34,504 nucleotides of DNA from a virus. Positions within the stretch are counted from its first letter, which is position 1. Each line of letters begins with the position of its first letter. Under the pieces are notes generated by a model, which was given only the letters and a program-made list of their open reading frames with translations, was not told the origin of the DNA and did not search any database. Shown here one piece after another: positions 1 to 34,504 of the stretch. A program made the translations under genes and the position numbers. The stretch is taken from positions 1-34,504 of the IMG/VR virus record IMGVR_UViG_3300027297_000001. The stretch is one strand, 5' to 3'.

Positions 1-99
1 AGCATGCGCTCCGGTGCCTGCAACTGCGCCGATTGCTGCATGCTCGTCATTTGCAGGGTTTTCGTCACGGTCGCGCCGCCGGTGATGGTGAATGGATTG
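1..99. repeat. Terminal direct repeat; identical to 34406-34504 (overlap of a circular assembly)
   Basis: Read directly: agcatgcgctccggtgcctgcaact...ggtgatggtgaatggattg is present at both window ends, so unique length is 34405 bp. Confidence 0.9.
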
Positions 100-296
100 T
101 TCTGCGGGATCGTGAAGAGGACTTGCTTCACGACGGCCGTGGAAACTGCCACTCCGTAATAATCCCATTCCGGTTGCACGACGAAATCGCCGAGGCCCGC
201 CGCCAGCATGTTACGCAGGCGGAATTTGGGCCGCCCGATTTCGTGCGCCGAAAGTTCCTGCAAATGCGAAAAGCATTTTGCATTGAGATGTTTCAT
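1..296 (-). CDS. Capsid-like beta-rich structural protein, N-terminal part (gene crosses the circular junction and continues 34405->33940; 253 aa in total)
   Basis: ATG at 294-296 (minus) with SD AAAGGAG about 9 nt upstream. It is in frame with ORF 33940..34473 through the 99-nt overlap (296-68=228 nt). N-terminus reads MKHLNAKCFSHLQELSAHEIGRPKFRLRNMLAAGLGDFVVQPEWDYYGVAV. Confidence 0.65.
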   Translation of the reverse strand, partial: MKHLNAKCFSHLQELSAHEIGRPKFRLRNMLAAGLGDFVVQPEWDYYGVAVSTAVVKQVLFTIPQNNPFTITGGATVTKTLQMTSMQQSAQLQAPERM

Positions 297-12963: not shown

Positions 12964-13109
12964 ACAAAGACCAAGAGGAATTCAACAAGACGCGGGAAAA
13001 GCTGTTCAAGCTGGCGGACAAGATGGGCCTGCGGTTGACGTTGACGGTGAAAAACAAATTCCAGGCCGCGCCGCAGCCGCATGCGAAACGGGAGCCGGGA
13101 GAAAACTGA
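12960..13109 (+). CDS. Possible 49-aa basic mini-protein
   Basis: ATGA overlap at 12960-12963. Sequence is MNKDQEEFNKTREKLFKLADKMGLRLTLTVKNKFQAAPQPHAKREPGEN. Confidence 0.45.
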   Translation: MNKDQEEFNKTREKLFKLADKMGLRLTLTVKNKFQAAPQPHAKREPGEN

Positions 13110-13873: not shown

Positions 13874-16100
13874 ATTTGTGATTTTACTCGGATGGGAAAT
13901 CGGAACGGGAAAGCGCGTGGAAATCCCGGACACCGGGCATCTGGCGTGGTTTGGCCAGACGCAGCTATCCGGGAAAACTACGGCGCTCGAGGCCATCGCC
14001 TATCGTGGGGAACTGACGGCCGTCGCGTTCATCACGAAACAGGGCGAGGGGGGATTCCTCACCGGGCGGATGATCCCCCCTTATTTCTCCGAACCGACGA
14101 ACGACGAAGAGCAACCGCTCTGGCGATGGGTGAAATCCATCCTCGAGGCTTCGCAACAGCGCAAAATGAATTTCGAGGAATCCTGGATCATCCGCGCCTG
14201 CGAGGATCCGCGCCTCGCGCAAACCCTGGCCGACGTGCATTCCAACATCAAGGCTTTGCTGGGCGGCGAGGGCGGCTACATCGAAAAAGGCCGCGGCAAG
14301 AAAAAGAAGCGCGAATGGAAATATTCCCGCAAACCAGTGTCCGGGATGAATGCCGGCATTTACACCAGCTTGAAAGCGTACTTCGATATCGTGATGCCCC
14401 AGCTGGCCCGCCTGCCTTACACCAAGAGACTGAAACTTTTCCCCGGCCTGAACGTGATGGACCTGCGCGAATACGCCACGGAGACGCAGGCGCTCGTGAT
14501 CCGTTCGGTGATGGAGTGGGTGTATCAGCACGAAAAGAACGTGCGCGTGATCGTCCCCGAATCGCAGGACTTCGTGCCGCAGGGAAAAAACTCCCCGGTA
14601 AAGATGGCCTGCGAGAACCTGGTGCGCAAGGCCGGGGCCAATAAAAATTTCATGTGGCTGGATTCGCAGGATATGGCCGCGGTGGACAAGATCATGCTGC
14701 GAGCCTGCTCGATCGTGGGCTGCGGCGTGCAAACCGAGGGGCACGAAATTGACCGCACGCTCGCGAGCATGTTTTCGCCCCAGCTAAAACCGATTGACAT
14801 TGCCCGGCTGCGCATCGGCGAATTCTTCGTGCGCACGCCGGAAGCGCGCGTTTCGAAAGTGTACGTGCAACCGGCCTGGATGGATAGCGAGCTCCACGCG
14901 CAGGCCATCGCCCGCGGCGAGGAAACCGTCGCCAGCGCGCGGCAGATGTTGCGTGCGTTTAAAGATTCAAGGAAACCCGGTCCGTCGTCCCCCCAACTGT
15001 TGCAAATTCAGGAGGAATCCGATGCCGAATGTGAGCGAAGTGCAGACGTTGAATCAGGGGCCGAAATATCAAAGTCAAGCGCGGAGGTTTCAAAGGATGA
15101 TCGAACTTCCAAGCGTCTACACCACGTCGACTCAGACGATGATTCTGGAACTGAAATTCGCCCCGAAGTTGACGATGGAAATCGAATTCACGAAGGGCGA
15201 AGCGTTCGAACTTCTGCGAGCGATCGCGGATGTGCCCCGAACGATGGAAATAATGAGGAAAACGACGGTTTACCACGGAAACAAGAAGCCCAAAAAACAA
15301 AAAATCTAAACGAGGAGACGATTCATGAAAAGCCTGGCAGGCAGGAAAGTCAAACCGCATGTGATGTTCAATCCGGTGCCGTTCGCGGATCAAGTGCTGG
15401 CGCGGAAGGATTGGACGATCGCGAAAAAGAGGGAAGTGATTCTATTCCAGGTGTTCGGGATCTCTCCCCGGAAAGTGAGGACGCAATGCCGGAAACCGCA
15501 GCCCAAAAAGTAGAGCGGCAACTGGACGATAACGTAATTCCCACGTTGGGCACGCTGCGCGAGCTTTTGAAAGATCACGCGGCGCTGATTGAAGCCCACG
15601 ACGCGCTGGCCGCGCGCGCGAGCGAACGGATGGTCACGGCATTGACCGAAGGTTACGAGGGAAACCTATCCCGATCAGCCGAAGCCATGACAAAACATCG
15701 GGAAAGCCAGTCCGCGCCGTCCGGCAACGGCCTTTCGCTCACCGTCCCGCAGTTGGACTACATCTACAAATACACCGTGGCGAAGGCGGCGAAGGCTCCC
15801 GGCATTCTGGAATTGCTCACCACGAAACCGGAACTGCGCGTGACCGTGCAACGGCAAACGGTGGAAATGGACGATTCCACGATCGTCGGACGGATCGCGC
15901 GGCTTCTCCACGAAGGATATTTCAAGAGTCCCAAAAACGTGCCCGCGCTGCAAAAGGAATTAAAGCGCCGCGGCTGCGATCAGCCCACCACGAACATTTA
16001 TAAGCCGATCAACAAACTGGCCGAGATGGGTTTTCTGACCGTGGAGGCCGAAGGCTACCAGGAAGTCCCGGAAATGAAAGTGTCCATTGTGAAAGCGTGA
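13863..16100 (+). CDS. HerA/FtsK-like P-loop NTPase + long acidic low-complexity linker + C-terminal winged helix (745 aa); candidate genome-packaging/translocating ATPase
   Basis: Walker A is HLAWFGQTQLSGKTTALEAI. Walker-B-like is NVRVIVPESQDFVP. FMWLDSQDMAAVDKIMLRACSIVGCGVQTEGHEIDRTL resembles the HerA/FtsK sensor region. The linker is acidic and Ser-rich, roughly residues 380-570. The C-terminus is GRIARLLHEGYFKSPKNVPALQKELKRRG...INKLAEMGFLTVEAEGY. The start is GTG (13863 or 13878). Confidence 0.65.
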   Translation: MRSEFVILLGWEIGTGKRVEIPDTGHLAWFGQTQLSGKTTALEAIAYRGELTAVAFITKQGEGGFLTGRMIPPYFSEPTNDEEQPLWRWVKSILEASQQRKMNFEESWIIRACEDPRLAQTLADVHSNIKALLGGEGGYIEKGRGKKKKREWKYSRKPVSGMNAGIYTSLKAYFDIVMPQLARLPYTKRLKLFPGLNVMDLREYATETQALVIRSVMEWVYQHEKNVRVIVPESQDFVPQGKNSPVKMACENLVRKAGANKNFMWLDSQDMAAVDKIMLRACSIVGCGVQTEGHEIDRTLASMFSPQLKPIDIARLRIGEFFVRTPEARVSKVYVQPAWMDSELHAQAIARGEETVASARQMLRAFKDSRKPGPSSPQLLQIQEESDAECERSADVESGAEISKSSAEVSKDDRTSKRLHHVDSDDDSGTEIRPEVDDGNRIHEGRSVRTSASDRGCAPNDGNNEENDGLPRKQEAQKTKNLNEETIHEKPGRQESQTACDVQSGAVRGSSAGAEGLDDREKEGSDSIPGVRDLSPESEDAMPETAAQKVERQLDDNVIPTLGTLRELLKDHAALIEAHDALAARASERMVTALTEGYEGNLSRSAEAMTKHRESQSAPSGNGLSLTVPQLDYIYKYTVAKAAKAPGILELLTTKPELRVTVQRQTVEMDDSTIVGRIARLLHEGYFKSPKNVPALQKELKRRGCDQPTTNIYKPINKLAEMGFLTVEAEGYQEVPEMKVSIVKA

Positions 16101-17660: not shown

Positions 17661-18897
17661 ATGCGTGTGGCTCTTTCCCCCATCCATATCCTCTCGCTTT
17701 GCTCCGGGACGGGCATGCTCGATGAAGGACTTTGCCTCGGGCTTCCGGGATCCCGCGTTGTGGGTTACGTCGAGCAGGAAGCCTTCTGCGCGGCGATTCT
17801 CCTGGCCCGGATGGCGGACGAGGCTCTGGTTCCGGCACCTGTCTGGTGCGGAAACCTTGAGGACTTCCCCGGCGCCGGATGGCGCGGAAGCGTGGACGGA
17901 ATCACTGCGGGCTTCCCGTGCCAGCCATGGAGCCAGTCCGGGAAACGGCTCGGCGCCGCGGATGAGCGATGGATCTGGCCCGCCATCGTGGGAATTGCTC
18001 GCGATGTGGGACCGGATTTCCTCTTCCTGGAAAACGTGCCTGGCCTTGTTTCCTCAGACGGACTGGCCCGAGTTCTCGGCGACCTTGCCGGACTCTGGTT
18101 CGATGCGGAATGGATTTCTATCCGAGCGTCCGATGTGGGAGCCGCCCACCAGCGAAAGCGAATTTTTATTTTGGCCGTCCGCCCGGGGCGAGGATTCGGA
18201 ATCCTGCGGGAATCATCCGAGGAATGGCTCGGCGCATTCGGGGGATTCGCTGACCAGAGTGGCGCGCAACTGGCCAACGGTTTACGGCCAGGGAGCGGGA
18301 AATTCCGGGCCGGACGGGAACGAATTTTCGACGATGGCGCGCGAGTGGCAGACGCCGGCGGCGGACAGTTCCCGATCGAGGGGCCTCGATCGCCGGAACG
18401 AAATGGGCCTGGATCAGCAAGCGAGATTCTGGCCGACGCCGACCGAGGACAACGTAAACAATCAGGGCGGCCCGAGCCGGAGCCGCGAGGGAGCGTTCGC
18501 GGATTTGACCGTAGCGGTACAACGCTGGCCCACGGCCGGGGCGAACGATCACAAGGGATCGGCGAAGGAAGGCCAGAGGCGGGGCCAATTGGACGAAGCG
18601 GCAGTGCATTTATTTTCGCCCCCCGGTCCCGCTGATCCCGTCTGGCGAGACATTCTCTGCCGAAGCCCGTATCTCGCCCCCGCGATTGCCGCTGGCAGTG
18701 TCCGTGTCTGGTGGGACGACGCGAACCGATCTTTCATCACGCAAACGCCTGAATCCTTGCTTTGCGGCGTGGCTGATGGGCATGCCCTGGTGGTGGACGA
18801 ATCCCGCGCCGATCAGCTTCGCGCGATTGGAAATGGAGTCGTGGCGCTGCAGGCTGCGGTCGCGTTTAGAATTCTTGCTCGCCGATTCCGTAAATGA
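17661..18897 (+). pseudogene. DNA (cytosine-5) methyltransferase with a broken reading frame (+1 shift needed at 18162-18174)
   Basis: The frame of ATG 17661 carries motif I LSLCSGTGMLD, motif IV GFPCQPWS, motif VI ENVPGL and motif VIII QRKRIFILA, then turns into Arg/Gly-rich read-through up to 18635. The +1 frame from about 18166 carries repeated (F/N/R)WPT-type target-recognition repeats (FWPSARGED, NWPTVYGQG, EWQTPAADS, FWPTPTEDN, RWPTAGAND) and motif X RAIGNGVVALQA, ending at 18897. Confidence 0.8.
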
Positions 18898-20273
18898 ATA
18901 ATGCCGACATCGAATTGATCCAGGCCAATGCCCGGGCCCTACCCCTCGGGGATCACTCCGTCCAGTGCATCGTCACTTCGCCGCCCTATTGGGGCCTGCG
19001 CAAATACTCCGGCGAACAGGAATTTATTTGGGGCGGCGATCTCAGTTGCGAACATCGTTTCTTGGTTTGGTCACTCATGCCCGTCGATCGCGATCGAAAA
19101 GAAAGTGGATGTCGCTGCGGGGCCTGGCGCGGCGCTTACGGGATGGAGCCGGCCATCGAAATGTACGTTCAGCACACGGTGGAAATTCTGCGCGAACTTC
19201 GCCGCGTCCTGCGGCCCGATGGCGTGCTGTTCTGGAATATCGGCGATAGCTATCACAACGGCGACAAAGGCGGCTACCGCAAAAGCAGGCTCGGCCTGCG
19301 ATCCGAAATGCAGAAATCGAACATGGGCGGCGATATCCCCGGCGCTCCGAACCGGAATCCGCAACCAGGTTTAAAACCGAAAGATTTATGCCTGATCCCG
19401 GAGCGCGTGGCCATCGCCGCGCAGGCGGATGGCTGGTGGATTCGCTCCATCATCGTGTGGGCCAAGCCCAATCCCATGCCGGAATCCTGCCAGGACCGTC
19501 CCACGGACGCTTACGAACACATTTTGATGCTCACGAAATCGGAACATTATTTTTGGGACGCGGACGCCGTGCGCGAACCGGCCGTCCAGGGCGATAGAGT
19601 CCGCAGCGACGTTATCGGCGGGAATCGAAGTTCAATCCTACAGCACTCGCCTAGCGGAAAATTTACGCAAGGGTACGATGAATTCGGGTACGCACCGAAG
19701 GGAACGCACTCGCGCGGCAAAGGCGATGGAGGGCCGAAAGCCCGGGCCCGGGCGACTGAGGATAATTTTCGCGATTGGGCCGATTCGACGCGGGACGTGC
19801 TCGGCTATCGAAATATTCGCAACGTGTGGATGTTCGCCACGCAGCCGTTCGCCGGCGCGCACTTCGCCACGTTTCCAGAGGAATTGCCGCGGCGTTGCAT
19901 CCTGGCGGCGACGTCCGCCAAAGGCGCGTGCGCGCAGTGCGGCGCGCCGTGGGAGCGCGTCACGCGATCGAAGTTTTACGGCAACTGGAATCCCGGCCCG
20001 GGCAGCAACGGTCCGATGAAAGTAAACGCGCAGTGGGAACCGCCAGAAACAATCGGCTGGACGCCCACTTGCCGCTGCCCGGGGCAACGCGGGAAAACGG
20101 TTCCCTGCGTGGTGCTCGATCCCTTCGCGGGGAGCGGGACTACCGGCCGCGTGGCCAGGAGCCTTCGCCGGCGCGCGATCCTTGCCGATGTGGCCTACGG
20201 TGCCGGGGACGAATACCGGAAACTCGCGCTCGATCGCATTCGCGGCGTGGATGTGGAACTTCCGTTCTTATGA
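18894..20273 (+). CDS. N4-cytosine/N6-adenine DNA methyltransferase, beta-class motif order (459 aa)
   Basis: The catalytic motif IVTSPPYW is near the N-terminus and the AdoMet motif VVLDPFAGSGTTGRVA is near the C-terminus. Also present: IIVWAKPNPMPES and HFATFPEELPRRCI. The start forms an ATGA-type overlap with the C5-MTase stop. Confidence 0.85.
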   Translation: MNNADIELIQANARALPLGDHSVQCIVTSPPYWGLRKYSGEQEFIWGGDLSCEHRFLVWSLMPVDRDRKESGCRCGAWRGAYGMEPAIEMYVQHTVEILRELRRVLRPDGVLFWNIGDSYHNGDKGGYRKSRLGLRSEMQKSNMGGDIPGAPNRNPQPGLKPKDLCLIPERVAIAAQADGWWIRSIIVWAKPNPMPESCQDRPTDAYEHILMLTKSEHYFWDADAVREPAVQGDRVRSDVIGGNRSSILQHSPSGKFTQGYDEFGYAPKGTHSRGKGDGGPKARARATEDNFRDWADSTRDVLGYRNIRNVWMFATQPFAGAHFATFPEELPRRCILAATSAKGACAQCGAPWERVTRSKFYGNWNPGPGSNGPMKVNAQWEPPETIGWTPTCRCPGQRGKTVPCVVLDPFAGSGTTGRVARSLRRRAILADVAYGAGDEYRKLALDRIRGVDVELPFL

Positions 20274-23175: not shown

Positions 23176-23655
23176 TCAGCTTCCGAAAGTAGGAACGTTT
23201 AAAGAATCCCACACGGCCTGCACGCCATCGACTTTGCATATTTGCTGGGCAGCCTCCGATGGTTCGGTGGGCACTTCCACGAGCTCGAGGTGCGGCAGAT
23301 CGTGCCAGGATTTGCCGTCGCGCAGGCCGTATTGCGGCGCGAGGGCCACGATACGCTGCCAGGCCGGATGCGACGCGTCCCAATCCGGCTGGCTCGTGTC
23401 TACATTCTCAACCCACACGTCCACGGCGCAGCCGATCACATGGTTCGATTGGAATCCGCGCGCGTCCGTGACGATTTTCCCCGGCATCGTGCGCCCCACG
23501 GCGAATAGGTTGTCCTGTTGCTGCGCGGTGCGCAGGCCGGCGTCAATCTGGATGGCGATGTCTTCCGCCGCCAGCGCGTCCGCCAGATTCTTCACGCGGC
23601 GCTGCAATTCGGGATGGGTTTCTTCGAGGCGGGCTAGTGAGATGTTGGATAGCAT
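23176..23655 (-). CDS. Peptidase M15 (VanY / L-alanyl-D-glutamate peptidase-like) cell-wall hydrolase (159 aa)
   Basis: The zinc-ligand pattern of the family is present: H...SNHVIGCAVDV ... GKSWHDLPHLEL. The N-terminus is LARLEETHPELQRRV. Confidence 0.8.
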   Translation of the reverse strand: MLSNISLARLEETHPELQRRVKNLADALAAEDIAIQIDAGLRTAQQQDNLFAVGRTMPGKIVTDARGFQSNHVIGCAVDVWVENVDTSQPDWDASHPAWQRIVALAPQYGLRDGKSWHDLPHLELVEVPTEPSEAAQQICKVDGVQAVWDSLNVPTFGS

Positions 23656-23855
23656 GCAATCTCCCTCGTAGGTTCGTCAAGGAACGCGCGCAGCCCGAAG
23701 CGGTGATAAAAACGATCTTTGACCGGACATCCCGCGCCAGGCCCGCGGTCCCATATGCGAAACGCGCCATTTCTTATCACGTCCCGCGTCTGGCGCAAAG
23801 CGAGAAATTCACAGTTGGGATTTGTAGCGCTGGCGGCGAGTTCGTACAGAGTCAT
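23634..23855 (-). CDS. Hypothetical protein (73 aa)
   Basis: ATGA overlap with the transglycosylase stop (23852-23855). Sequence starts MTLYELAASATNPNCEFLALRQTRDVIRNGAFRIW. It overlaps the M15 start by 22 nt. Confidence 0.45.
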   Translation of the reverse strand: MTLYELAASATNPNCEFLALRQTRDVIRNGAFRIWDRGPGAGCPVKDRFYHRFGLRAFLDEPTREIACYPTSH

Positions 23856-24361
23856 TCGAGAAAACTCCAAAGAGCAAGCCCGGCGATGGCGGCGCCCACA
23901 ACCCACAAAACAGTTTCGGCGCTCCATCCGGTCGGCACGGGAACGCTCGCTTGCCCCGCGGGTGTGGAAGTGAGTCCCGGAACCGATGGCACGGCGGCCG
24001 CGGCTGGCGCGAGGTAAGCCTGATAGGCGCCGGAATTGTACGTCGACCAGGGAGAAAACCCGCCCGCGATGGAGTAGATTTCGTACGCATCGTTCGCGTT
24101 GGTTTGGGGATCGTAGAGATTGTCGTTCGCGTATTCGGGATGATCTTTCAAATAAATCTGCCAGAGCCCGTACGATCCCTCGCCGGGGGGAGTCCCGCCA
24201 GACGCGGCCGTTTCGGGATTGTAGATGTTCGGGTTGCCCTGGCTTTCGGCGAGCGCGATGGCCACGGCGGTTTGCAAATCCTGCCCGTCGAAGCCGGCCG
24301 TCTGCGCGTAGTACAGGATTTGCGCCGGCGTCAAGATCGTTGCGGTGGGAACGTTGGTCAT
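23852..24361 (-). CDS. Lytic transglycosylase (SLT/lysozyme-like) with C-terminal TM anchor (169 aa)
   Basis: AVAIALAESQGNPN...GSYGLWQI...Y matches the SLT catalytic Glu-Ser and GLxQI motifs. The C-terminus is WSAETVLWVVGAAIAGLALWSFLE. Confidence 0.75.
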   Translation of the reverse strand: MTNVPTATILTPAQILYYAQTAGFDGQDLQTAVAIALAESQGNPNIYNPETAASGGTPPGEGSYGLWQIYLKDHPEYANDNLYDPQTNANDAYEIYSIAGGFSPWSTYNSGAYQAYLAPAAAAVPSVPGLTSTPAGQASVPVPTGWSAETVLWVVGAAIAGLALWSFLE

Positions 24362-24711
24362 ATTTCCGTGATCCGTGATTCATGGTCGGTGACTAATGGT
24401 GAATTAAACAACGGAATGCCAATAATTTTCGTGTTTGCCGCTACTTCGTAGTAATCCCATTCCGGTTGAACGATGATATCGCCGAGTCCGTTCGCGGACG
24501 CGTGTTTAAGCGAGCGTTTCATATCTTCGCCAAACGGTTCCTGCAGTGATAGCAGGTAATCTATGACCGGCCCCAGGAGAGTTGGCGGTTTTACGATTTC
24601 GGATGGAAAACTGAAAACGCGAAAAGGAAATGTGCGCACTGCCGCGCCGGCGGCGAGGCCACCGATCATTGTTCGCAGAAAAGTGCGGCGGTCCATCAAT
24701 CGCTTTCCCAT
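24358..24711 (-). CDS. Tat-signal-like protein carrying a copy of the capsid-like N-terminal arm (117 aa, or 112 aa from ATG 24696)
   Basis: MDRRTFLRTMIGGLAAGAAV is a twin-arginine RRxFL motif plus an h-region. The C-terminal part NGLGDIIVQPEWDYYEVAANTKIIGIPLF parallels AGLGDFVVQPEWDYYGVAVSTAVVKQVLF of the junction-spanning gene. The ATG at 24696 forms a TGATG overlap with the upstream stop. Confidence 0.65.
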   Translation of the reverse strand: MGKRLMDRRTFLRTMIGGLAAGAAVRTFPFRVFSFPSEIVKPPTLLGPVIDYLLSLQEPFGEDMKRSLKHASANGLGDIIVQPEWDYYEVAANTKIIGIPLFNSPLVTDHESRITEI

Positions 24712-24905
24712 TGCGGGATTTCTTCGATGTCTTCCACTTCCTCGATCACATGGTTTTGCTCGAGGGCCGGACCGAACGCCTTGCAGCCCGCGCCGTGCTC
24801 ATTCCGCAACGCCTCGCACTCTGCAAGCGTATCGCCGAAAAATACGTGCCGGACGCGGATGGTGCCATCCCGTTCCAATTTGTCAACGTGCAGCGCGATC
24901 GGCAT
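24696..24905 (-). CDS. Hypothetical acidic-C-terminus protein (69 aa)
   Basis: ATG 24903-24905 behind AAGGAAAG. Sequence MPIALHVDKLERDGTIRVRHVFFGDTLAECEALRNEHG...EEVEDIEEIPQWESD. Confidence 0.55.
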   Translation of the reverse strand: MPIALHVDKLERDGTIRVRHVFFGDTLAECEALRNEHGAGCKAFGPALEQNHVIEEVEDIEEIPQWESD

Positions 24906-25656
24906 GGACTTTCCTTTGCACTGGCGCGACGCCGTATTCGGCAATCCAGTTTTCGAGGGACATCGAAGCCATCGGCAAGAGATTCAGCGATGTCAATCCG
25001 GCGCGCATCTGGTCGATCTTGGTCTGCAAATTCAGGGTGTGCGTGTGCCAGAAATACACGCCCGCGTCGCTATCTTCCTTTTGAATTTGCTGGACCGTCT
25101 TGAGCTTGAGGCCGTAGCGGGCGATGTTCCGGGAGAGCACGTAATCGTCGATTAGATGCTCCGGCGTGATTCCCGCCAGGCGCTCTTTGGTGATCGGCTG
25201 GATGCGCTCGATCGTATCCGCCAGGGATAAATCTTCCGGGGGATCGTCCAGGGGATGCCACAGATCGATGCACCAGTCGGACGCCGCGGTAAACCAGTTG
25301 CACGAGCCGATGTCCCGGCCGTCCCGCCGGAAATAATTGTCATACCGCCAACGGTTGCTCGCGTGATCCTGGCCCCAATGCGCTACGGTGTCTTTCGGGA
25401 TCCGCTCCGTGATGTCAAACATATCCGGGAAAACCATCGCGTCCGAATCGATGTACACGTTCCAATCGTTTCCCCGGCCGCGATGAAAGATTTGCAGTTT
25501 TTCGTACACCACAGGAAAGTCGGGATAGTGGCGCTCGTTGATGATGCGGAAGTCCGCCCCGATTTTCTTTGCGTAGGCGAGGATCAGCGGATAGGTGAGC
25601 TCGCAGAGTTTCGGAGCGTAGTCGCCGATGTTAAGAGTCCAGACGGTTTTGAGCAT
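24883..25656 (-). CDS. GT-A-type glycosyltransferase-like protein with DxD motif (257 aa)
   Basis: ATG 25654-25656 behind GGAAGGAA. Sequence MLKTVWTLNIGDYAPKLCELTYPLILAYAKKIGADF...VYEKLQIF...WNVYIDSDAMVFPDMF shows the nucleotide-sugar transferase pattern ending in DSD. The family assignment is approximate. Confidence 0.55.
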   Translation of the reverse strand: MLKTVWTLNIGDYAPKLCELTYPLILAYAKKIGADFRIINERHYPDFPVVYEKLQIFHRGRGNDWNVYIDSDAMVFPDMFDITERIPKDTVAHWGQDHASNRWRYDNYFRRDGRDIGSCNWFTAASDWCIDLWHPLDDPPEDLSLADTIERIQPITKERLAGITPEHLIDDYVLSRNIARYGLKLKTVQQIQKEDSDAGVYFWHTHTLNLQTKIDQMRAGLTSLNLLPMASMSLENWIAEYGVAPVQRKVHADRAAR

Positions 25657-27571: not shown

Positions 27572-30500
27572 TCAGAACGATTCGCAATCCCAATTCGCGC
27601 CCGCCGCCGAGGCCGACACTAAGACAGACCTGCAAGTGACGTGCTTTAAATTTGCAATCACAAGGGTTGTGTTAGTCCCATTCACGGTCTGGCCCGAAAT
27701 GGCGGCACCAATCGTGACTGTATTGGCCCCGGTTGTTTGGATGTTTTCTCCATTGCAAGTTTTCCCAACAAGCGGAATTGCATCCGGCAAATTAAGCTGA
27801 ATACTTCCGCCGGAGGGATCGGCTTGCCATCCCGCTCCACAGTCCGCATAGTTTAAATAGAGAGTCCCACCTACCGTTCCTGGCTTGAGGGCGCTGACAA
27901 TAATCCCCATTTTCGCGGCGGGCGTGATGTTCGCCGTCGCGGTGTATGCTCCCGCGACGCGCGCGATCATAGATTGTGTATTCATCGTGAATTGCACGCC
28001 CGACCCCGCCACGCTCGGAAGGAAATTGCCAGATTGATACCAACCAAGCGGCGGGTTTGTGTATACGGATGCGCTCAGTCCAGTTGCGCTATCTGCGAAG
28101 GTCGAAGCACGCAAAAAATCGTTAGCAACGGTTGTGGTAATGGATGGCGTGATGGCAGTTGTTTGAGACCCGGCGGTCGATCCGCATCCAGAGGCCACAT
28201 CAATGACCGAAGTGGTCGCGGTGCGCTGGTCCTCGGTCATGAAAATATTTACAGAGGAAGCGGCTGTACTCGAAAAAGTGATCGTCACGGTGGTTGCTCC
28301 ACCTACAGCATTCGGGGCACTGTAGCGAACAATGTTCAGATTTCCTCCGGACGGATACACGCAGGAAGCATGATCTGCAGTAAAAGTGTCTCCGGGACCA
28401 TCGGTGACTGTGGAAATTGTCGGCCCCCCCGTGAGCCACTGGATAGCCACACCGAGTGTACTTCCTGGAGTCACAGTGACCGGGAATGTGCATGTGGCCG
28501 TTGCAACACCTGGATTCCCGATGGTGCACGCATAATCGGGCTGAACCGTGTAAGGAAACACCGCATTTCCAACTTTGTAAATATTGGGCTGCGCGTTGGT
28601 TCCGAATGCCGCCGCGTCGTATTGAACATGGGCGCTCATATAGGGGCCGAGGTAGGCATCATCAGAAATTTGCGTGGGATGGATGTGGTCGGCTTGGAAA
28701 TAGGTTCCGCTTGACGATGCTCCATCCGCGCCAAGATTCGGTTGCGCAGCCCAATCCATGACATCGTTGCAAACAGTAGGCAGCGAGGCGCGCGCGAGCG
28801 TGTTGTACTGATTAATGATAGCGTCCGACGATCCCGTCCCCGCTTTGAGAGTGGTCGAAGCAATCGTATAAAATCCGGCCCTGGATGCCGCGCGGCACCA
28901 GGAAAGTTCATATTGGAGAGCCTGTTCGGGCGTTGCCAGTTCGCCTGCACGCAGATCATTTGTCGGCCCATCATTTAAGGCAATATTCCAAGGCGCAGTT
29001 GGCGTGAGATATTGCGGAAGCGTGGCAAGCGTGTCCTCGGAGCCAAGTTGAATGTACGTGTTGCTGTATGCTTGGTTCACAACATTCCAAGGTACTGTCC
29101 CTGGCAAATTGAGTCGATAGTTCATGGGGCCGTTAATCCCCTGTCCCACGACAATCGAGGTTCCTGTCAGGTTTAGCTTGTTGACTTGCGACGTGGCCAA
29201 GATCGGAAAATAACCTTCGATCTGCGCGAGTGATTGAAACGCCTGCCATTCTGCCGTGATTTGCGCCTGCGTGGGCGCAACGGTGAGGAATTCCATTCCA
29301 ATGACCGTCATACTGGAAAAAATGCCAGTGATACCCCAAGCAGTGCCAAAGAGTTGAACGTTCCCCGCACTCATCGCTCCAAAAGAGGAAGCAGGCGTAT
29401 AGCCTGCATAGGAATTCACTTTTTGATTATTGAGGTATAGCGCATCGGGGCTTCCAGGGATGAAAGTGATCATGCCCACGCCGTTGAGACCGTCCGGGCT
29501 GGTACTCGGTGCACCGCTGCCGATCGGTTGAATATCCAAGACATTAAATTGCCGTCCGGGCGCGCTATTGCTTAAATCTAAAATCAGGTTGTTATTGTTG
29601 GCCGCGTTGGTTCCGCCGAGAAGGACTTGATACATACCGCCAAATTGCGAACCGGCGACAACTGCCGCTTGCTGCATATAATTTCCAGGATCGTTGTAAG
29701 TAAGATAGATCAATACGGCGGCGTAATTCGATTGATTAAATGGAAACGTAACGGAGCAATTAGCATTAGTAGCGGTTATGCCGTAGGCTGGGCCGAGATT
29801 AAGTGTCACAGTTCCATTGACGCAGGCACCAATGGTGCCAGTGCGGTTGTTGCCAGAACTGTCTGCGATACTCGTACCGGAACCGTCTCGAAAGAGATAT
29901 CTGGCATAAACGCTCGTTCCCGTGAGCGCAAAAGGAATTGGCGGAATTGATGGTCCAGCATTGATCCAATTCGTCTGACACGTTCCACCGGAAGGCGCCG
30001 CGCTATCAAGCACCTGCCCGGCTGTGGGATTTGCGGTTGGCTGCAATAGAGCGCATGGACTAGCCGGCCCGATCGACGACGGTCCCGAGAAGATCGCAAA
30101 CTCATTTGCTGCGGGACTTCCAGTCGTCGTTACGGTTCCAAGAGTGGCGAAATTCGTCAGCTTCGGCGCTGCGGCGTTTAACGTGGCGCTGATATCCATC
30201 GTCACGCCAGTAATCGCGATGGTAACGGAAAAAGTCTGTGGGCCAGTTCCGAAAGGCCCTGGAATTCCGCCTTGATTGGAATTGACGGTGATCAACCATT
30301 GACTCAAAGCTGGTAGGATTTGCGAATTGTTTCCGAAATTTGCGGAGAAGTGGCCATTGGAATCGAGCGGGACGGTGTTGATCTGCCCGGAATAAGGAAG
30401 CACGACTCCGTTGTTATTTAACGTCCATCCGCCAGGCGATCCCGGAACGAGAACGGCGCTCATCGTTCCATTGCCATAAGGAATGCCATTCGGATCCGTG

Positions 30501-30610
30501 ACGGTCGCCGTGACGGTTGTGAACGGATTCGGAGTTCCCGAGACAGCCGCCGGAGACGTAAAAAGAAAAGCCCCGGCAAGCACCAGGGCTGCAAACAGAT
30601 TCTTTTTCAT
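27572..30610 (-). CDS. Large signal-peptide-bearing, Thr/Ser/Gly/Asn-rich protein with SGNH/GDSL-esterase-like central motifs (1012 aa); candidate receptor-binding/receptor-modifying spike
   Basis: The N-terminus MKKNLFAALVLAGAFLFTSPAAVSG is Sec-type. A beta-sandwich-like segment follows (TVTATVTDPNGIPYGNGTMSAVLVPG). SGNH-like blocks are LNLTGTSIVVGQG, NIALNDGPTNDL and YFQADHIHPTQISDDAYLG (DxxH). The remainder is beta-rich. Confidence 0.6.
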   Translation of the reverse strand: MKKNLFAALVLAGAFLFTSPAAVSGTPNPFTTVTATVTDPNGIPYGNGTMSAVLVPGSPGGWTLNNNGVVLPYSGQINTVPLDSNGHFSANFGNNSQILPALSQWLITVNSNQGGIPGPFGTGPQTFSVTIAITGVTMDISATLNAAAPKLTNFATLGTVTTTGSPAANEFAIFSGPSSIGPASPCALLQPTANPTAGQVLDSAAPSGGTCQTNWINAGPSIPPIPFALTGTSVYARYLFRDGSGTSIADSSGNNRTGTIGACVNGTVTLNLGPAYGITATNANCSVTFPFNQSNYAAVLIYLTYNDPGNYMQQAAVVAGSQFGGMYQVLLGGTNAANNNNLILDLSNSAPGRQFNVLDIQPIGSGAPSTSPDGLNGVGMITFIPGSPDALYLNNQKVNSYAGYTPASSFGAMSAGNVQLFGTAWGITGIFSSMTVIGMEFLTVAPTQAQITAEWQAFQSLAQIEGYFPILATSQVNKLNLTGTSIVVGQGINGPMNYRLNLPGTVPWNVVNQAYSNTYIQLGSEDTLATLPQYLTPTAPWNIALNDGPTNDLRAGELATPEQALQYELSWCRAASRAGFYTIASTTLKAGTGSSDAIINQYNTLARASLPTVCNDVMDWAAQPNLGADGASSSGTYFQADHIHPTQISDDAYLGPYMSAHVQYDAAAFGTNAQPNIYKVGNAVFPYTVQPDYACTIGNPGVATATCTFPVTVTPGSTLGVAIQWLTGGPTISTVTDGPGDTFTADHASCVYPSGGNLNIVRYSAPNAVGGATTVTITFSSTAASSVNIFMTEDQRTATTSVIDVASGCGSTAGSQTTAITPSITTTVANDFLRASTFADSATGLSASVYTNPPLGWYQSGNFLPSVAGSGVQFTMNTQSMIARVAGAYTATANITPAAKMGIIVSALKPGTVGGTLYLNYADCGAGWQADPSGGSIQLNLPDAIPLVGKTCNGENIQTTGANTVTIGAAISGQTVNGTNTTLVIANLKHVTCRSVLVSASAAGANWDCESF

Positions 30611-31930: not shown

Positions 31931-32647
31931 CTACCAGGCGACGGAACGATCCGTCGCTTCGAATTGATCGTCCCACGTCCGCGGATAGAAATATCCGCCC
32001 AGGAGCGCGCCTACTTCCTCGCCGGACACGGGAAGTGACACATTCTGAAAAACCCACTGGATGATGTCGTTTTCAAAAATGCGGATCCCGGAGATGCGCG
32101 CCGGGCTGGCGATGAGGCCGTAAGACGCGAGCACGTTCTGATAGTTGCGCTCGGCAAAGCCTCCCGTATTCGGCCCTGCGCTGGGATTGCGCACGATCTG
32201 CCAGATCGCGGCCCCGGAAAAATCGGACCATGCGCCGCCTACCACCACATTTGCGATACGATTCAGCACGCCGTTACGGCCTGGCGGGCAGGTGATCGAA
32301 ACGACTGTGTGATACACGCCATCCGCGGCGGGGATGAGAATTCCGCCGCCAAGATGAAAAGATTCGGAGTCCGGCGGTTCGATCAGCCACGGCGCGGCGA
32401 TTAACCGCGTGGAACGCTGGACTTGCTGCATCACGCTCTGAACGGAATTGATCGCGTCGATCGTGGGATCGTCGGAAGCCGCCGGCGCGGCGGGCGGACG
32501 CAGCACTAGATTCGGCTGGATGGAGCGATCGGCGCGCCGCTTATACGGCCAGGTAGTTTTCTCGATCGAAGACGCGGCCGCGTCCGTCCCGTTCGGTTGC
32601 CCGGCGGCGTCCGATGGGCTTGTGGTAACGAGTGTTTCGTAGGCCAT
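31931..32647 (-). CDS. Beta-rich capsid-module protein (238 aa)
   Basis: ATG 32645-32647, 1 nt after the upstream stop. Sequence ...GVYHTVVSITCPPGRNGVLNRIANVVVGGAWSDFSGAAIWQIVRNP...ISGIRIFENDIIQWVFQNVSLPV. Confidence 0.6.
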   Translation of the reverse strand: MAYETLVTTSPSDAAGQPNGTDAAASSIEKTTWPYKRRADRSIQPNLVLRPPAAPAASDDPTIDAINSVQSVMQQVQRSTRLIAAPWLIEPPDSESFHLGGGILIPAADGVYHTVVSITCPPGRNGVLNRIANVVVGGAWSDFSGAAIWQIVRNPSAGPNTGGFAERNYQNVLASYGLIASPARISGIRIFENDIIQWVFQNVSLPVSGEEVGALLGGYFYPRTWDDQFEATDRSVAW

Positions 32648-32648
32648 G

Positions 32649-33152
32649 TTAGCTTCTCCACCAGGCCGAATAGCCGAAGAGGCTCACGCTCACGGTGTTC
32701 GGATTCGCGCCGTCGAGATTTTGGATCCGGCAATTCACGGGCGAACCGTTGGCGATGAAGTGCGGAATTTTCAGCAAGCCAGGTTCCTTGCCGTTCGTCG
32801 TGAAGAGAACCTGATCCACGCCGTATTTTCCCCACTTGTACCCGAGCAAATCTTCGTAGATGAGCGCGCGAAAGGAACCGGATGCCGCGGCAAGGCCGGA
32901 CGTGGCATGCGCCAGAATCGCGACCAGCCAGAAATCCTCTTGGATGGTGACGCGCGCGAGGTCGGTTTCTCCGGCGGTCAAAATCAGCGGTTGAAACGCG
33001 TACCAGTAGAGATGCGCGCCGGCGAGCGAGAGCCGAACCCATTGCGGCGGAACCCATCCCGACGAAACGAGTTTTCTGCGATTCTGCCAGGCCCCGAGCG
33101 TGGGAGACATTCTCGCGCCGGGTACATGGCCTTGCGTCCAGGGGTTAATCAT
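32649..33152 (-). CDS. Small beta-rich capsid-like protein (167 aa), paralog of 33217..33825
   Basis: ATG 33150-33152 directly after hairpin A copy 3. Sequence EDFWLVAILAHATS...LFTTNGKEPGLLKIPHFIANGSPVNCRIQNLDGANPNTVSVSLFGY. Confidence 0.6.
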   Translation of the reverse strand: MINPWTQGHVPGARMSPTLGAWQNRRKLVSSGWVPPQWVRLSLAGAHLYWYAFQPLILTAGETDLARVTIQEDFWLVAILAHATSGLAAASGSFRALIYEDLLGYKWGKYGVDQVLFTTNGKEPGLLKIPHFIANGSPVNCRIQNLDGANPNTVSVSLFGYSAWWRS

Positions 33153-33190
33153 TTTATTTCGCGCACTCCATGTGCGCAATTCCTTTCCTC
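33153..33190 (-). promoter_or_regulatory. Hairpin motif A, copy 3
   Basis: In gene sense: GAGGAAAGGAATT-GCGCAC-ATGGA-GTGCGC-GAAATAAA-ATG. The hairpin is at 33161-33177. Confidence 0.6.
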
Positions 33191-33939: not shown

Positions 33940-34504
33940 CTAGAGAACCGCGCGCGCCTTCTGACCTTCCAGGTACACGAACGCATTGATTCCCGTCCCG
34001 ATGGGCACGGTGTTGTTTGCATTCGTGGTGAAGCCCGTGGCTTGCGCCCAGGCCGCCTGCGTGGGATCGACTTCGACCCTGAACGCCTGTTGCTGCGCGA
34101 TCAGGATTCCATCGATGTTCGGGAACTGGTCGACGCCGGGAGTTCCGTCGCATCCGGGATCCGTCAGACGGAATCCCTGGTGCTCCGAAGGCAGCCCATT
34201 GCCCACAGCCCCGATGATCGTGTTCGCCGCCGTGGCGCCAAATTGCTGCGCCCACACGCCGCCGCCTGCCGGCAATTTCGCCAGCACGCCCACCACAAAG
34301 AACGACTTCGTGGAAATGAAGAAGTTCACGATGGTCTGGCTTCCGAAGCGAACCATATCGAACTGGTTCACGTTGTTATCGACGAATACGGTGATCCCGC
34401 GAACAAGCATGCGCTCCGGTGCCTGCAACTGCGCCGATTGCTGCATGCTCGTCATTTGCAGGGTTTTCGTCACGGTCGCGCCGCCGGTGATGGTGAATGG
34501 ATTG
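33940..34504 (-). CDS. Capsid-like beta-rich structural protein, C-terminal part (same gene as 1..296; runs through the 99-nt overlap)
   Basis: The frame is open to the window end. The 'M' at 34473 in the track is an internal GTG (Val). Sequence ...FDMVRFGSQTIVNFFISTKSFFVVGVLAKLP...GILIAQQQAFRVEVDPTQ...NAFVYLEGQKARAVL. Confidence 0.65.
   Translation of the reverse strand, partial: NPFTITGGATVTKTLQMTSMQQSAQLQAPERMLVRGITVFVDNNVNQFDMVRFGSQTIVNFFISTKSFFVVGVLAKLPAGGGVWAQQFGATAANTIIGAVGNGLPSEHQGFRLTDPGCDGTPGVDQFPNIDGILIAQQQAFRVEVDPTQAAWAQATGFTTNANNTVPIGTGINAFVYLEGQKARAVL
34406..34504. repeat. Terminal direct repeat; identical to 1-99
   Basis: See feature 1..99. Confidence 0.9.

What the first reader, a model, noticed from the sequence alone, without database searches (positions are those of the whole stretch)
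24358..24711. A Tat-signal protein carries a duplicated copy of the capsid-like protein's N-terminal arm
In the 117-aa protein, residues NGLGDIIVQPEWDYYEVAANTKIIGIPLF match AGLGDFVVQPEWDYYGVAVSTAVVKQVLF near the N-terminus of the junction-spanning capsid-like gene. At DNA level, 24448-24489 versus 156-197 is 37/42 identical by my hand alignment. The copy is preceded by MDRRTFLRTMIGGLAAGAAV, a near-consensus twin-arginine (S/T-R-R-x-F-L-K) export signal. The protein stops just after the duplicated arm. A capsid-arm mimic that is exported or membrane-tethered could act as an assembly nucleator or tether at the membrane, or as a decoy. I know of no described analogue.
Basis: seen in the sequence. 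Interest (0 to 1): 0.7.

Follow-up and report, generated by a model that had tools for sequence, protein, structure and literature searches.

The report
Conserved leader fused to capsid fragment
The small gene is real and is one member of a large, apparently undescribed family of phage accessory proteins that join an almost invariant twin-arginine-type leader to a short piece resembling the phage's own major capsid protein, which points to a device aimed at capsid protein rather than an essential assembly factor.

Summary
The 112/117-aa ORF (24358-24711, minus strand) shares 21/41 residues and 37/42 bases with the N-terminal region of a 253-aa jelly-roll, capsid-like protein that spans the junction of this circular 34.4-kb genome.

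The larger result is a general rule. The conserved part is the leader, M[ND]RRxFLxxxIGG[VL]AAxAAVR[TS][FW]PFRVFSFP. A profile search finds it in at least 919 protein clusters, all small proteins. It occurs in 44 viral contigs that mostly share nothing else, and in one Acidobacteriaceae prophage. The C-terminal halves are hypervariable, yet 59 of 183 match one of only nine capsid proteins, against about 1 for shuffled sequences. In 10 of 13 loci tested the match is to the phage's own capsid protein. These include P22-like and other tailed phages.

In this virus family the gene is an accessory cassette. A sibling genome with 96-97% identical flanks lacks exactly these 331 bp, and other relatives carry unrelated small genes in the same slot. 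This argues against an essential nucleator.

My best reading is a membrane- or Tat-directed capsid-protein mimic used for interference or decoy. The architecture is shown. Tat export, capsid binding and function are inferred.

The parts
24358..24711 (-). The small ORF. It is 117 aa from the first ATG at 24711. The likely product is 112 aa from the second ATG at 24696 (MDRR...).
   Evidence: Translation. Gene callers on identical contigs aa. Homologues were found. Selection acts on the protein: synonymous codons vary freely at invariant residues.
24592..24696 (-). Conserved leader, MDRRTFLRTMIGGLAAGAAVRTFPFRVFSFPSEIV. It has a twin-arginine motif, a 12-residue Gly/Ala-rich hydrophobic stretch, an Arg, then the invariant PFRVFSFP.
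   Evidence: In 36 homologues G13, R21, P24, F25, R26, V27, F28, S29, F30 and P31 are invariant. A profile search finds 919 clusters. AlphaFold predicts a helix at residues 3-22, the only confident part of the model.
24520..24591 (-). Variable linker, KPPTLLGPVIDYLLSLQEPFGEDM.
   Evidence: Its length varies between members of the arm subfamily and it is not conserved.
24397..24519 (-). Capsid-derived segment, KRSLKHASANGLGDIIVQPEWDYYEVAANTKIIGIPLFNSP.
   Evidence: 21/41 identical to residues 24-64 of the 253-aa protein. The motif is kept in P0002-P0006, P0009 and P0016.
24358..24396 (-). C-terminal tail LVTDHESRITEI plus the stop codon. The stop overlaps the ATG of the next gene (ATGA).
   Evidence: Read from the sequence. 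A tail of the form TDHE(S/P)R(I/V)TE(L/I) is shared by several subfamily members.
24362..24692 (.). The 331-bp stretch that is present or absent as a unit: the whole gene between its ATG and the ATG of the next gene.
   Evidence: It is absent from L055, whose flanks are 96.3% and 97.3% identical. GC is 51% against 58% for the genome.
1..296 (-). 5' part of the 253-aa jelly-roll, capsid-like gene (residues 1-98). The gene continues at 34405 across the circular junction.
   Evidence: There are 77 homologues at 33-100% identity.
33940..34504 (-). 3' part of the same 253-aa gene. Positions 34406-34504 repeat 1-99.
   Evidence: AlphaFold model pLDDT 75.9, pTM 0.72. Best PDB fold match is the capsid protein of Sulfolobus polyhedral virus 1, 6oj0_A, probability 0.97, E 0.025. 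SPV1 VP4 also scores probability 0.97 in BFVD.
105..227 (-). The segment of the capsid-like gene (residues 24-64) that the small protein resembles.
   Evidence: The nearly invariant columns G34 L35 G36 D37 F38 Q41 P42 W44 D45 Y47 L60 F61 lie here. In the model there is a beta-hairpin at 37-49 and a strand at 58-60.
24696..24944 (-). Upstream gene (82-aa ORF, called as 69 aa). Its stop overlaps the leader gene's ATG (TGATG).
   Evidence: It is conserved in relatives and abuts the SLT (lytic transglycosylase) gene directly in L055 and nearly so in L056.
23852..24361 (-). Downstream gene: a 169-aa lytic transglycosylase (SLT_3/SLT) with a hydrophobic C-terminal segment.
   Evidence: Precomputed Pfam hits. 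Sequence.
23176..23655 (-). 159-aa VanY / Peptidase_M15_4-like cell-wall peptidase in the same gene string.
   Evidence: Precomputed Pfam hits.

Best explanation
What it is (shown): an accessory cassette gene of a circular 34.4-kb virus with a jelly-roll capsid-like protein.

Its product belongs to a large, unnamed, virus-borne family of 60-230-aa proteins with two modules:
- an almost invariant N-terminal leader, M[ND]RRxF[LI]xx[LM][IV]GG[VL]AAxAAVR[TS][FW]PFRVFSFP[ST]EI
- a short, fast-evolving C-terminal piece that, wherever a source could be detected, resembles a segment of a major capsid protein, usually the phage's own. Here it is the N-proximal hairpin region of the 253-aa protein.

How it most likely works (inferred):
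1. The leader is a twin-arginine-type signal or signal-anchor that engages a host component common to all these phages, namely the cytoplasmic membrane or the Tat translocon.
2. The capsid-derived piece gives specificity. It makes the native-like contacts of the segment it mimics and so binds capsid subunits or a partner of that segment.
3. The net effect is that capsid protein is captured at the membrane, or capped, and withheld from normal assembly.

The gene is dispensable, differs between near-identical genomes and often lies on the opposite strand inside head-gene modules. I therefore think it serves in conflict, as interference with head assembly of related co-infecting or superinfecting viruses. 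This would be a head-directed counterpart of the small prophage proteins Tab and Tai. I do not think it builds the virus's own capsid.
For: Architecture and generality:
- 36 homologues share the leader and differ completely downstream.
- A profile search of 1.84 billion representative proteins gives 919 clusters at E<=1e-3 and 707 at E<=1e-10. All are small, with the leader at or near the N-terminus.
- There are 44 IMG/VR loci. Only L006/L007 and L010 share other genes with the window. No other gene family co-occurs in all loci.
- Selection is on the protein. Invariant R and S residues use both codon families, CGN/AGR and AGY/TCN.

Capsid origin of the C-termini:
- Matches within the same locus: L011 E 8e-9, L042 2e-6, L029 5e-5, L047 4e-5.
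- The targets are capsid proteins. L019 matches Pfam P22_CoatProtein at 9e-17. The L008 hit lies inside the gene called P22_CoatProtein. L011 and L029 match PHROG 'major head protein' at 1e-3 and 3e-5. The L029 target is followed by a GroES homologue.
- 59 of 183 distinct C-termini hit one of nine capsid proteins at E<0.01. Ten shuffled sets gave 0-3 hits and the reversed set gave 1.
- 10 of 13 loci show significant similarity to their own capsid protein, z>=3.9.

Accessory status:
- The 331-bp stretch is precisely absent from L055, and the slot is variable in relatives.
- GC is 51% against 58% for the genome.
- The leader gene is on the opposite strand to the capsid gene in 11 of 16 loci. In the P22-like contig it sits between structural genes on the other strand.
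- At least one member lies in a prophage in an Acidobacteriaceae genome, flanked by bacterial genes.

Fast evolution: L011 and L034 have capsid proteins 94% identical and leaders 97% identical, but C-terminal pieces only 33% identical.

Precedents:
- Protein fragments commonly inhibit their parent protein through native-like contacts (PMC9245647, PMC10769210).
- Small prophage proteins inside late operons block virion assembly of invaders (Tab, PMC10884400; Tai, PMC11364771).
Against: - No binding, localisation or phenotype data exist. Every functional step is inference.
- Tat-signal HMMs are below threshold, and there is no clear AxA cleavage site.
- If the protein were truly exported by Tat, the capsid piece would end up in the periplasm, away from capsid assembly.
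- In this window the gene is co-oriented with its neighbours and its start and stop codons overlap theirs. No promoter of its own was detected. This fits a lytic-cycle gene better than a prophage-expressed moron (an add-on gene not needed for phage growth).
- A fragment that keeps the family-invariant capsid residues should also bind the phage's own capsid protein, and no counter-measure is known.
- About two thirds of the C-termini have no detected capsid match. This may only reflect the nine-protein reference set. 3 of 13 loci show none to their own capsid protein.
- AlphaFold gives no confident fold for the C-terminal half.
Confidence: 0.4

Rival explanations
1. Decoy against host immunity that senses capsid protein. 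The capsid-derived piece occupies the sensor's binding site before or while the real capsid protein is made. The leader takes the complex to the membrane or out through Tat, or marks it for removal.
For: - Same architecture evidence as above.
- Presence or absence between near-identical genomes and fast evolution are typical of counter-defence genes.
- A separate transcription unit on the opposite strand would allow expression before the late genes.
- Bacterial sensors that recognise major capsid proteins are known (Avs families, PMC13581612).
Against: - The fragments come from many different parts of capsid proteins: N-terminus, middle and C-terminus. One sensor type would not explain this.
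- Binding to such sensors normally activates them rather than blocking them.
- No sensor is known in Acidobacteria.
- The role of the invariant PFRVFSFP motif remains unexplained.
Confidence: 0.15
2. One reading: a membrane-tethered capsid-arm mimic that nucleates or anchors assembly of the virus's own capsid on the membrane. This is comparable to small membrane proteins that link vertices to the internal membrane in PRD1-like viruses.
For: - This virus appears to contain a membrane. Several of its proteins end in a hydrophobic segment followed by KKRR, and the lytic transglycosylase has a hydrophobic C-terminus.
- The capsid-like protein is a jelly roll whose best match is SPV1, an archaeal virus. 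That SPV1 contains an internal membrane is my own knowledge.
- The gene is co-oriented with structural and entry-type genes.
Against: - L055 and L056 lack the gene, and L058-L060 have unrelated genes in the slot.
- The same leader with a capsid piece is found in P22-like and other terminase-encoding tailed phages, which are not known to have a membrane.
- The hydrophobic stretch is only 12-15 residues, short for a stable membrane anchor (read from the sequence).
Confidence: 0.08
3. Virion-incorporation device. The capsid-derived piece docks the protein into the procapsid, acting as a capsid-targeting sequence. The conserved leader is the payload, delivered to the next cell or acting on its membrane.
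For: - A conserved module combined with a phage-specific module, and location in head-gene modules.
- The logic resembles the T4 internal proteins, which carry a capsid-targeting sequence (my own knowledge).
Against: - The polarity is reversed relative to T4. Here the conserved part would be the payload, which is only about 35 residues.
- Opposite-strand placement argues against co-expression with head genes.
- No protease site was identified.
Confidence: 0.08
4. Lysis-timing sensor. The Gly/Ala-rich leader behaves like a signal-arrest-release or holin/antiholin segment. The capsid piece couples its release to the pool of unassembled capsid protein.
For: - In the window the gene lies immediately upstream of a lytic transglycosylase, with overlapping stop and start codons, and a VanY-type peptidase is nearby.
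- The leader's hydrophobic stretch is weakly hydrophobic and rich in Gly/Ala (read from the sequence).
Against: - In most other loci the gene lies among head genes, not lysis genes.
- The gene is dispensable.
- No precedent is known.
Confidence: 0.07
5. No function for the C-terminal half. A mobile leader mini-gene reads into leftover pieces of capsid genes created by recombination in head modules.
For: - Hypervariable C-termini of variable length.
- Low AlphaFold confidence.
- Atypical GC3.
- Two thirds of C-termini have no detectable source.
Against: - The fragments are always in frame and kept open.
- The arm subfamily keeps exactly the residues that are invariant in the capsid family, across members only 45-61% identical.
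- No family member ends right after the leader: the shortest listed are 61-69 aa.
- The fragments are diverged (25-60% identity) rather than fresh debris.
Confidence: 0.07
6. Secreted pro-peptide for phage-phage signalling (arbitrium-like). The leader is an export signal and the variable C-terminus provides a phage-specific signal.
For: Conserved signal-like N-terminus with a variable C-terminus in small phage proteins.
Against: - This does not explain why the C-termini resemble capsid proteins.
- No receptor gene co-occurs.
- There is no conserved processing site at the C-terminus.
Confidence: 0.04

Closest known systems
Tab (tail assembly blocker) of Pseudomonas phage JBD26 and the Tai systems of prophages and satellites (PMC10884400, PMC11364771)
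   Same: These are small accessory proteins encoded inside late or structural gene modules. Tai lies in a non-contiguous operon. They are present or absent between related elements, and they act on virion assembly of competing phages.
   Different: - No sequence similarity (PADLOC: none).
- Their target is the tail, not the capsid.
- They are not built from a piece of the target protein.
- They have no conserved leader.
- No counter-defence partner has been identified here.
- Function here is untested.
Dominant-negative protein fragments that inhibit their parent protein through native-like contacts (PMC9245647, PMC10769210)
   Same: A short segment of a protein, expressed separately, is expected to bind where the native segment binds. 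Fragments from many positions of the parent can work, as seen here (N-terminus, middle and C-terminus).
   Different: Those fragments are laboratory-made. Here the fragments are natural genes, diverged 25-60% from the parent and fused to a conserved leader.
Twin-arginine (Tat) signal peptides, including uncleaved Tat signal-anchors such as that of Rieske proteins
   Same: An RRxFL motif is followed by a moderately hydrophobic Gly/Ala-rich stretch and a basic residue. RR is kept in 26 of 27 distinct leaders.
   Different: - HMM scores are below the curated cut-offs.
- An invariant aromatic motif, PFRVFSFP, follows. It has no counterpart in ordinary signal peptides and is far more conserved than any signal peptide.
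- The passengers are short and probably unfolded.
T4 internal proteins with a capsid-targeting sequence (my own knowledge)
   Same: A family of small phage proteins with a conserved N-terminal peptide and hypervariable remainder. They are linked to the capsid and involved in conflict with the host.
   Different: In T4 the conserved peptide targets the capsid and the variable part is the effector. Here the variable part resembles the capsid protein and the conserved part is signal-like. There is no sequence similarity.
Gol peptide of T4 gp23, the trigger of the Lit protease (my own knowledge)
   Same: A short stretch of a major capsid protein is biologically active on its own.
   Different: Gol is part of the capsid gene and is sensed by a host or prophage protease. 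Here the stretch is a separate phage gene with a leader.

Membership tests
Tat signal peptide (Pfam PF10518, TIGR01409) | Twin-arginine motif (S/T)-R-R-x-F-L-K near the N-terminus | tested here: met
   The sequence reads D-R-R-T-F-L-R. Across 27 distinct leaders RR is present in 26, F at +2 in 26 and L/I/F at +3.
Tat signal peptide (Pfam PF10518, TIGR01409) | Moderately hydrophobic h-region of about 12-20 residues, then a basic residue in the c-region | tested here: met
   TMIGGLAAGAAV (12 residues, Gly/Ala-rich) is followed by R (read from the sequence). AlphaFold predicts a helix at 3-22.
Tat signal peptide (Pfam PF10518, TIGR01409) | Score at or above the curated HMM cut-off | tested here: not met
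   PF10518 scores 11.9 bits against 22.7. TIGR01409 gives no hit for the window protein and 14.9 against 16.7 for the L011 member.
Tat signal peptide (Pfam PF10518, TIGR01409) | A-x-A signal-peptidase site and Tat-dependent export | not testable with these tools
   There is no canonical AxA; the sequence reads AGAAV-RTF. No TatP or SignalP tool is available here. Export needs reporter fusions in tat+ and tat- hosts.
Jelly-roll major capsid protein (for the 253-aa partner) | Beta-sandwich jelly-roll fold resembling known viral capsid proteins | tested here: inconclusive
   AlphaFold pLDDT 75.9, pTM 0.72. Foldseek's top PDB hit is the SPV1 capsid protein 6oj0_A at probability 0.97, but E is 0.025 and TM 0.34/0.45. 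The lists are dominated by jelly-roll capsid proteins, yet none reaches E<=0.001. There are no sequence hits in PDB, Pfam or PHROGs.
Jelly-roll major capsid protein (for the 253-aa partner) | Most abundant protein of the virion shell | not testable with these tools
   Indirect support only: it is highly conserved (77 homologues), and it is the protein copied behind the leader, as capsid proteins are in the tailed phages.
Moron / accessory cassette | Present or absent between otherwise near-identical genomes | tested here: met
   L055 lacks exactly 24362-24692, with flanks 96-97% identical. L056 also lacks it. L058-L060 carry other genes in the slot.
Moron / accessory cassette | Base composition different from its surroundings | tested here: met
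   GC is 51% (C-terminal half 48%, GC3 0.52) against 58% for the genome. This is the 6th percentile of 331-bp windows.
Moron / accessory cassette | Own promoter and terminator | tested here: inconclusive
   No sigma-70-like promoter or convincing terminator was found around the gene in the window, L008 or L011. In the window the gene overlaps both neighbours. In 11 of 16 other loci it lies on the opposite strand to the capsid gene, which implies its own transcription.
Tab / Tai assembly-interference defence | Sequence membership | tested here: not met
   No meaningful PADLOC hit for five family members: four had none and one had a single weak BrxHII match, E 0.028. No Pfam or PHROG family.
Tab / Tai assembly-interference defence | Blocks virion assembly of an invading phage while the carrier is protected | not testable with these tools
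   Needs infection experiments.
Diversity-generating retroelement target/template pair | Reverse transcriptase nearby and adenine-specific differences between the two copies | tested here: not met
   No reverse-transcriptase domain appears among the precomputed Pfam hits on the genome. The five DNA differences in the 42-bp core are of mixed kinds.

The most novel reading that the evidence does not exclude
Soil phages, probably of Acidobacteria, carry a modular, 'programmable' system directed at capsid protein. One invariant leader (the effector or address module, working through a host component) is combined with interchangeable peptides copied from a major capsid protein (the specificity module). 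The same design operates on HK97-fold capsids of tailed phages and on the jelly-roll capsid-like protein of this virus. It would be a natural use of dominant-negative or decoy protein fragments in virus-virus or virus-host conflict, and a new class of small phage proteins with at least about 900 sequence clusters.
Probability: 0.35. Interest if true: 0.9.

Novelty: categorically new. Interest (0 to 1): 0.8.

Why it matters
If the reading is right, phages repeatedly take short pieces of their own capsid proteins, attach them to a common leader and keep them as separate, fast-evolving accessory genes. This would be a new principle in phage biology, in which specificity comes from self-mimicry rather than from a dedicated binding domain.

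- It would add a head-directed counterpart to the recently found tail-assembly blockers.
- It would give a simple recipe for engineering phage-specific inhibitors: leader plus capsid fragment.
- It offers a practical annotation trick. The C-terminus of a leader protein points to the capsid gene in otherwise unannotatable phage genomes, as it does for the 253-aa protein of this novel virus.
- It defines a large protein family (at least 919 clusters) that has no entry in Pfam, NCBIfam, PHROGs or PADLOC.

Tried and rejected
1. DNA- or RNA-level element. Rejected: synonymous sites vary freely in the leader, and codon identity in the arm core is only marginally above expectation (P 0.04).

2. Antisense artefact of a gene on the other strand. 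Rejected: R and S residues switch between codon families, which is selection in this frame. Gene callers find no overlapping gene.

3. Phage attachment site carrying the 5' end of a host gene. Rejected: no long cellular protein carries the leader. All hits are 60-232 aa, and there is one hit in 185,579 species genomes, itself in a prophage.

4. Recent neutral duplication. Rejected: see the motif conservation and the GC difference.

5. Diversity-generating retroelement. Rejected: no reverse transcriptase, and the differences are not adenine-specific.

6. A conserved partner gene. None co-occurs in all loci.

7. Searches that gave nothing:
- promoter and terminator scans
- GenBank phages for three capsid proteins
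- PDB sequence profiles
- hhalign of the 428-aa capsid family against P22-like coats
- PADLOC and NCBIfam
- literature search for the motif PFRVFSF
- a regex screen for integrases

8. AlphaFold on the small protein gave no confident fold beyond the leader helix. It neither supports nor refutes a hairpin like that of the capsid protein.

9. The third homologue search showed that the 442-aa capsid family is large but entirely unnamed.
Full report
**The observation.** The window is a complete circular genome. Bases 1-99 repeat at 34406-34504, so the unit is 34,405 bp, with 58% GC. Gene callers on identical public contigs start it at the second ATG, giving 112 aa beginning MDRR. The 'junction-spanning' gene is one 253-aa ORF, 33940..34405 joined to 1..296 on the minus strand.

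The stated similarity is exact. It is 37/42 at DNA level and 21/41 at protein level, between residues 65-105 of the small protein and residues 24-64 of the large one, with pairwise E 8e-12. Against the whole genome it is the only paralogous match, E 2e-10. Identical codons at identical residues number 9 of 12 against 5.7 expected (P 0.04). The signal is therefore a protein signal.

**The partner protein.** No Pfam, PHROG or PDB sequence match exists, and there is no relative among 50,697 GenBank phages. The protein has 77 metagenomic homologues, mostly 60-100% identical. AlphaFold with 70 sequences gives pLDDT 75.9 and pTM 0.72. The model has a disordered N-terminus (1-34), a beta-hairpin at 37-49 and a beta-rich core.

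Foldseek puts the capsid protein of Sulfolobus polyhedral virus 1 first in the PDB, with probability 0.97 and E 0.025. Picornavirus, nodavirus, iridovirus, PBCV-1, SH1 and circovirus capsid proteins also appear among the top 50. SPV1 VP4 recurs in BFVD. 'Capsid-like' is thus reasonable but not proven. The copied segment is the end of the flexible arm plus the first hairpin and strand of the jelly roll, so it is not only an arm.

**What is conserved is the leader.** The 36 homologues of the small protein are 69-137 aa long. They share an almost invariant first 35-40 residues and differ completely afterwards. Invariant positions include G13, R21 and the block P-F-R-V-F-S-F-P.

Only a subset keeps the GLGDF.(V/I)QP.(W/Y)D(Y/F)(Y/F)...LF motif: P0001-P0006, P0009 and P0016. 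These are the same residues that are nearly invariant in the 253-aa family.

A scan of IMG/VR found 44 loci on contigs of 4-152 kb. Only L006/L007 and L010 belong to the window's virus family. All others share nothing but the leader.

Across 27 distinct leaders the synonymous sites vary freely. Arg uses CGN and AGR codons, and Ser uses AGY and TCN. Selection therefore acts on the peptide, not on DNA or RNA.

A profile search of 1.84 billion representative proteins found 919 clusters at E<=1e-3 and 707 at E<=1e-10. All listed members are 61-232 aa, with the leader at or near the N-terminus. Among 185,579 species genomes there is a single hit. It lies in a prophage of an uncultured Acidobacteriaceae MAG. 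Bacterial GGDEF and radical-SAM genes lie on one side, followed by a phage Rep protein, the leader gene, terminase, portal, prohead protease and an HK97-type capsid gene. No other gene family co-occurs in all loci.

**The C-termini are pieces of capsid proteins.** I compared each C-terminal half with its own locus. This gave significant hits in several unrelated phages: L011 E 8e-9, L042 2e-6, L029 5e-5, L047 4e-5, L019 2e-4, L040 1e-3 and L008 0.012.

The targets are capsid proteins:
- L019's is Pfam P22_CoatProtein, 9e-17.
- L008's lies inside the gene called P22_CoatProtein, next to P22_portal.
- L011's and L029's match PHROG 'major head protein', 1e-3 and 3e-5.
- L029's is followed by a GroES homologue, and L013 has a terminase next to the leader gene.

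With 183 distinct C-termini and only nine capsid proteins as targets, 59 hit at E<0.01 and 38 at E<1e-4. Ten shuffled sets gave 0-3 and 0, and the reversed set gave 1 and 0. Most hits fall in the first fifth of the capsid protein. Others fall at about 0.5-0.75 and 0.85-0.96 of its length.

In 10 of 13 loci that hold both genes, the C-terminus is significantly similar to the phage's own capsid protein, z>=3.9. The window's case is therefore one instance of a rule that holds for HK97-fold tailed phages and for this jelly-roll virus.

**The gene is an accessory cassette.** Relatives were fetched through the neighbouring 283-aa gene. L055 encodes proteins 97-100% identical for most genes but lacks the small gene, and L056 lacks it too. 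By blastn the window has 331 extra bases (24362-24692), with flanks 96.3% and 97.3% identical. The boundaries are the overlapping stop/start junctions, TGATG and ATGA.

In L058, L059 and L060 the same slot holds unrelated ORFs of 80, 74 and 123 aa. In L006 and L057 it holds leader-arm genes.

The cassette has 51% GC and GC3 of 0.52, against 58% for the genome and 60% for the capsid gene segment. It was therefore not copied recently from the resident capsid gene. In 11 of 16 loci the leader gene is on the opposite strand to the capsid gene, typically about 2 kb away.

The fragment evolves much faster than its source. L011 and L034 have capsid proteins 94% identical and leaders 97% identical, but C-terminal pieces only 33% identical.

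**Is the leader a Tat signal?** The motif (RRxFL), a 12-15-residue Gly/Ala-rich hydrophobic stretch and a following Arg all fit. AlphaFold predicts a helix for residues 3-22. However, both Tat HMMs are below threshold and there is no clear AxA site. The invariant PFRVFSFP block is far more conserved than any part of an ordinary signal peptide. The hydrophobic stretch is too short for a stable membrane helix (read from the sequence). I treat 'Tat-type signal or signal-anchor' as the best inference, not as a result.

**Mechanism.** These points are shown:
- a two-module architecture
- selection on both modules in the arm subfamily
- capsid origin of many C-termini
- dispensability
- wide spread among unrelated phages with no common partner gene

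These points are inferred:
- The leader works through a host component.
- The capsid piece binds by native-like contacts, as protein fragments often do (PMC9245647, PMC10769210).
- The result is capture or capping of capsid protein.

The population pattern resembles that of conflict genes. Small prophage proteins inside late operons are known to block assembly of invading phages (Tab, PMC10884400; Tai, PMC11364771). I therefore rank assembly interference first, at about 0.4 including the architecture claim. A decoy for capsid-sensing immunity comes second, at about 0.15.

Lysis timing, virion targeting, signalling and 'no function' each remain possible at low probability. The main internal tension is this: true Tat export would place the capsid piece in the periplasm, away from assembly.

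**Novelty.** No family in Pfam, NCBIfam, PHROGs or PADLOC covers these proteins. The motif occurs in no paper of the library. I found no description of phage genes that fuse a common leader to fragments of the capsid protein. I rate it categorically new as a kind of gene architecture, with the function open.

Noticed in passing
window 1-34504 (whole): The window is a complete circular genome of 34,405 bp with a 99-bp terminal repeat. The virus has no detectable terminase, portal or HK97-type capsid gene among the genes scanned. It has a jelly-roll capsid-like protein whose best match is an archaeal virus (SPV1), followed by three more small beta-rich proteins (33217-33825, 32649-33179, 31931-32647, minus strand). 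It has no relative among GenBank phages. It may represent a new group of bacterial jelly-roll viruses, possibly membrane-containing.
   Followed up: partly
window 2543-3475, 3388-4140, 4023-4859 (minus strand): Three consecutive, partly overlapping ORFs encode Ser/Thr/Ala-rich proteins. Each ends in a hydrophobic segment followed by GGKKRR or GKKR. They look like paralogous tail-anchored membrane proteins. The lytic transglycosylase (23852-24361) also ends in a hydrophobic segment.
   Followed up: no
window 13546-13809 (within ORF 13109-13873, plus strand): A 6-bp/24-bp tandem repeat, 44 copies of CGCCAT at 85% match. It encodes a long (A/S/D/I)n low-complexity tract inside a 254-aa ORF.
   Followed up: partly
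window 13863-16100 (plus strand): A 745-aa protein with a Walker-A-like GQTQLSGKTT near its N-terminus and an acidic, disordered middle. Its first 371 residues, the only part scanned, gave no PHROG or NCBIfam hit. It is conserved in relatives at 41-89%. It is a candidate packaging ATPase of this non-tailed virus.
   Followed up: partly
window 27572-30610 (minus strand), compared with L055 4387-5193: The 1012-aa secreted-looking protein is conserved with the near-identical sibling L055 only over its first ~270 residues (81%). The neighbouring genes are 97-100% identical. This looks like exchange of a host-recognition domain.
   Followed up: no
window 24696-24944 to 23852; L058 11102-11344, L059 11012-11236, L060 4207-4578: The position between the 82-aa gene and the lytic transglycosylase is a hot spot. 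Different relatives carry different unrelated small ORFs there, or none.
   Followed up: yes
L029 12242-12586 (also L039, L040, L053): A phage-encoded GroES-like co-chaperonin (phrog_3188, 1.7e-15) lies directly after the probable major capsid gene in a group of uncultivated soil phages.
   Followed up: no
P0114; L039 9879-10199 and 10625-11011: P0114 carries two leader cores in tandem (AAVRTFPFRVFSFPSEI twice). L039 has two leader ORFs about 750 bp apart that are identical over the part of the leader shown and the first 28 residues after it, then diverge. This suggests duplication and recombination within the family, or an assembly repeat.
   Followed up: no
window 8601-10058, 17665-18897 and 18894-20273 (plus strand): The replication and modification module has three parts. 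One is a DnaB-like helicase/primase (phrog_19, 1e-18). One is an N6_N4 DNA methyltransferase (Pfam). The third is a 410-aa ORF ending in a GNGV motif that may be a cytosine methyltransferase.
   Followed up: partly
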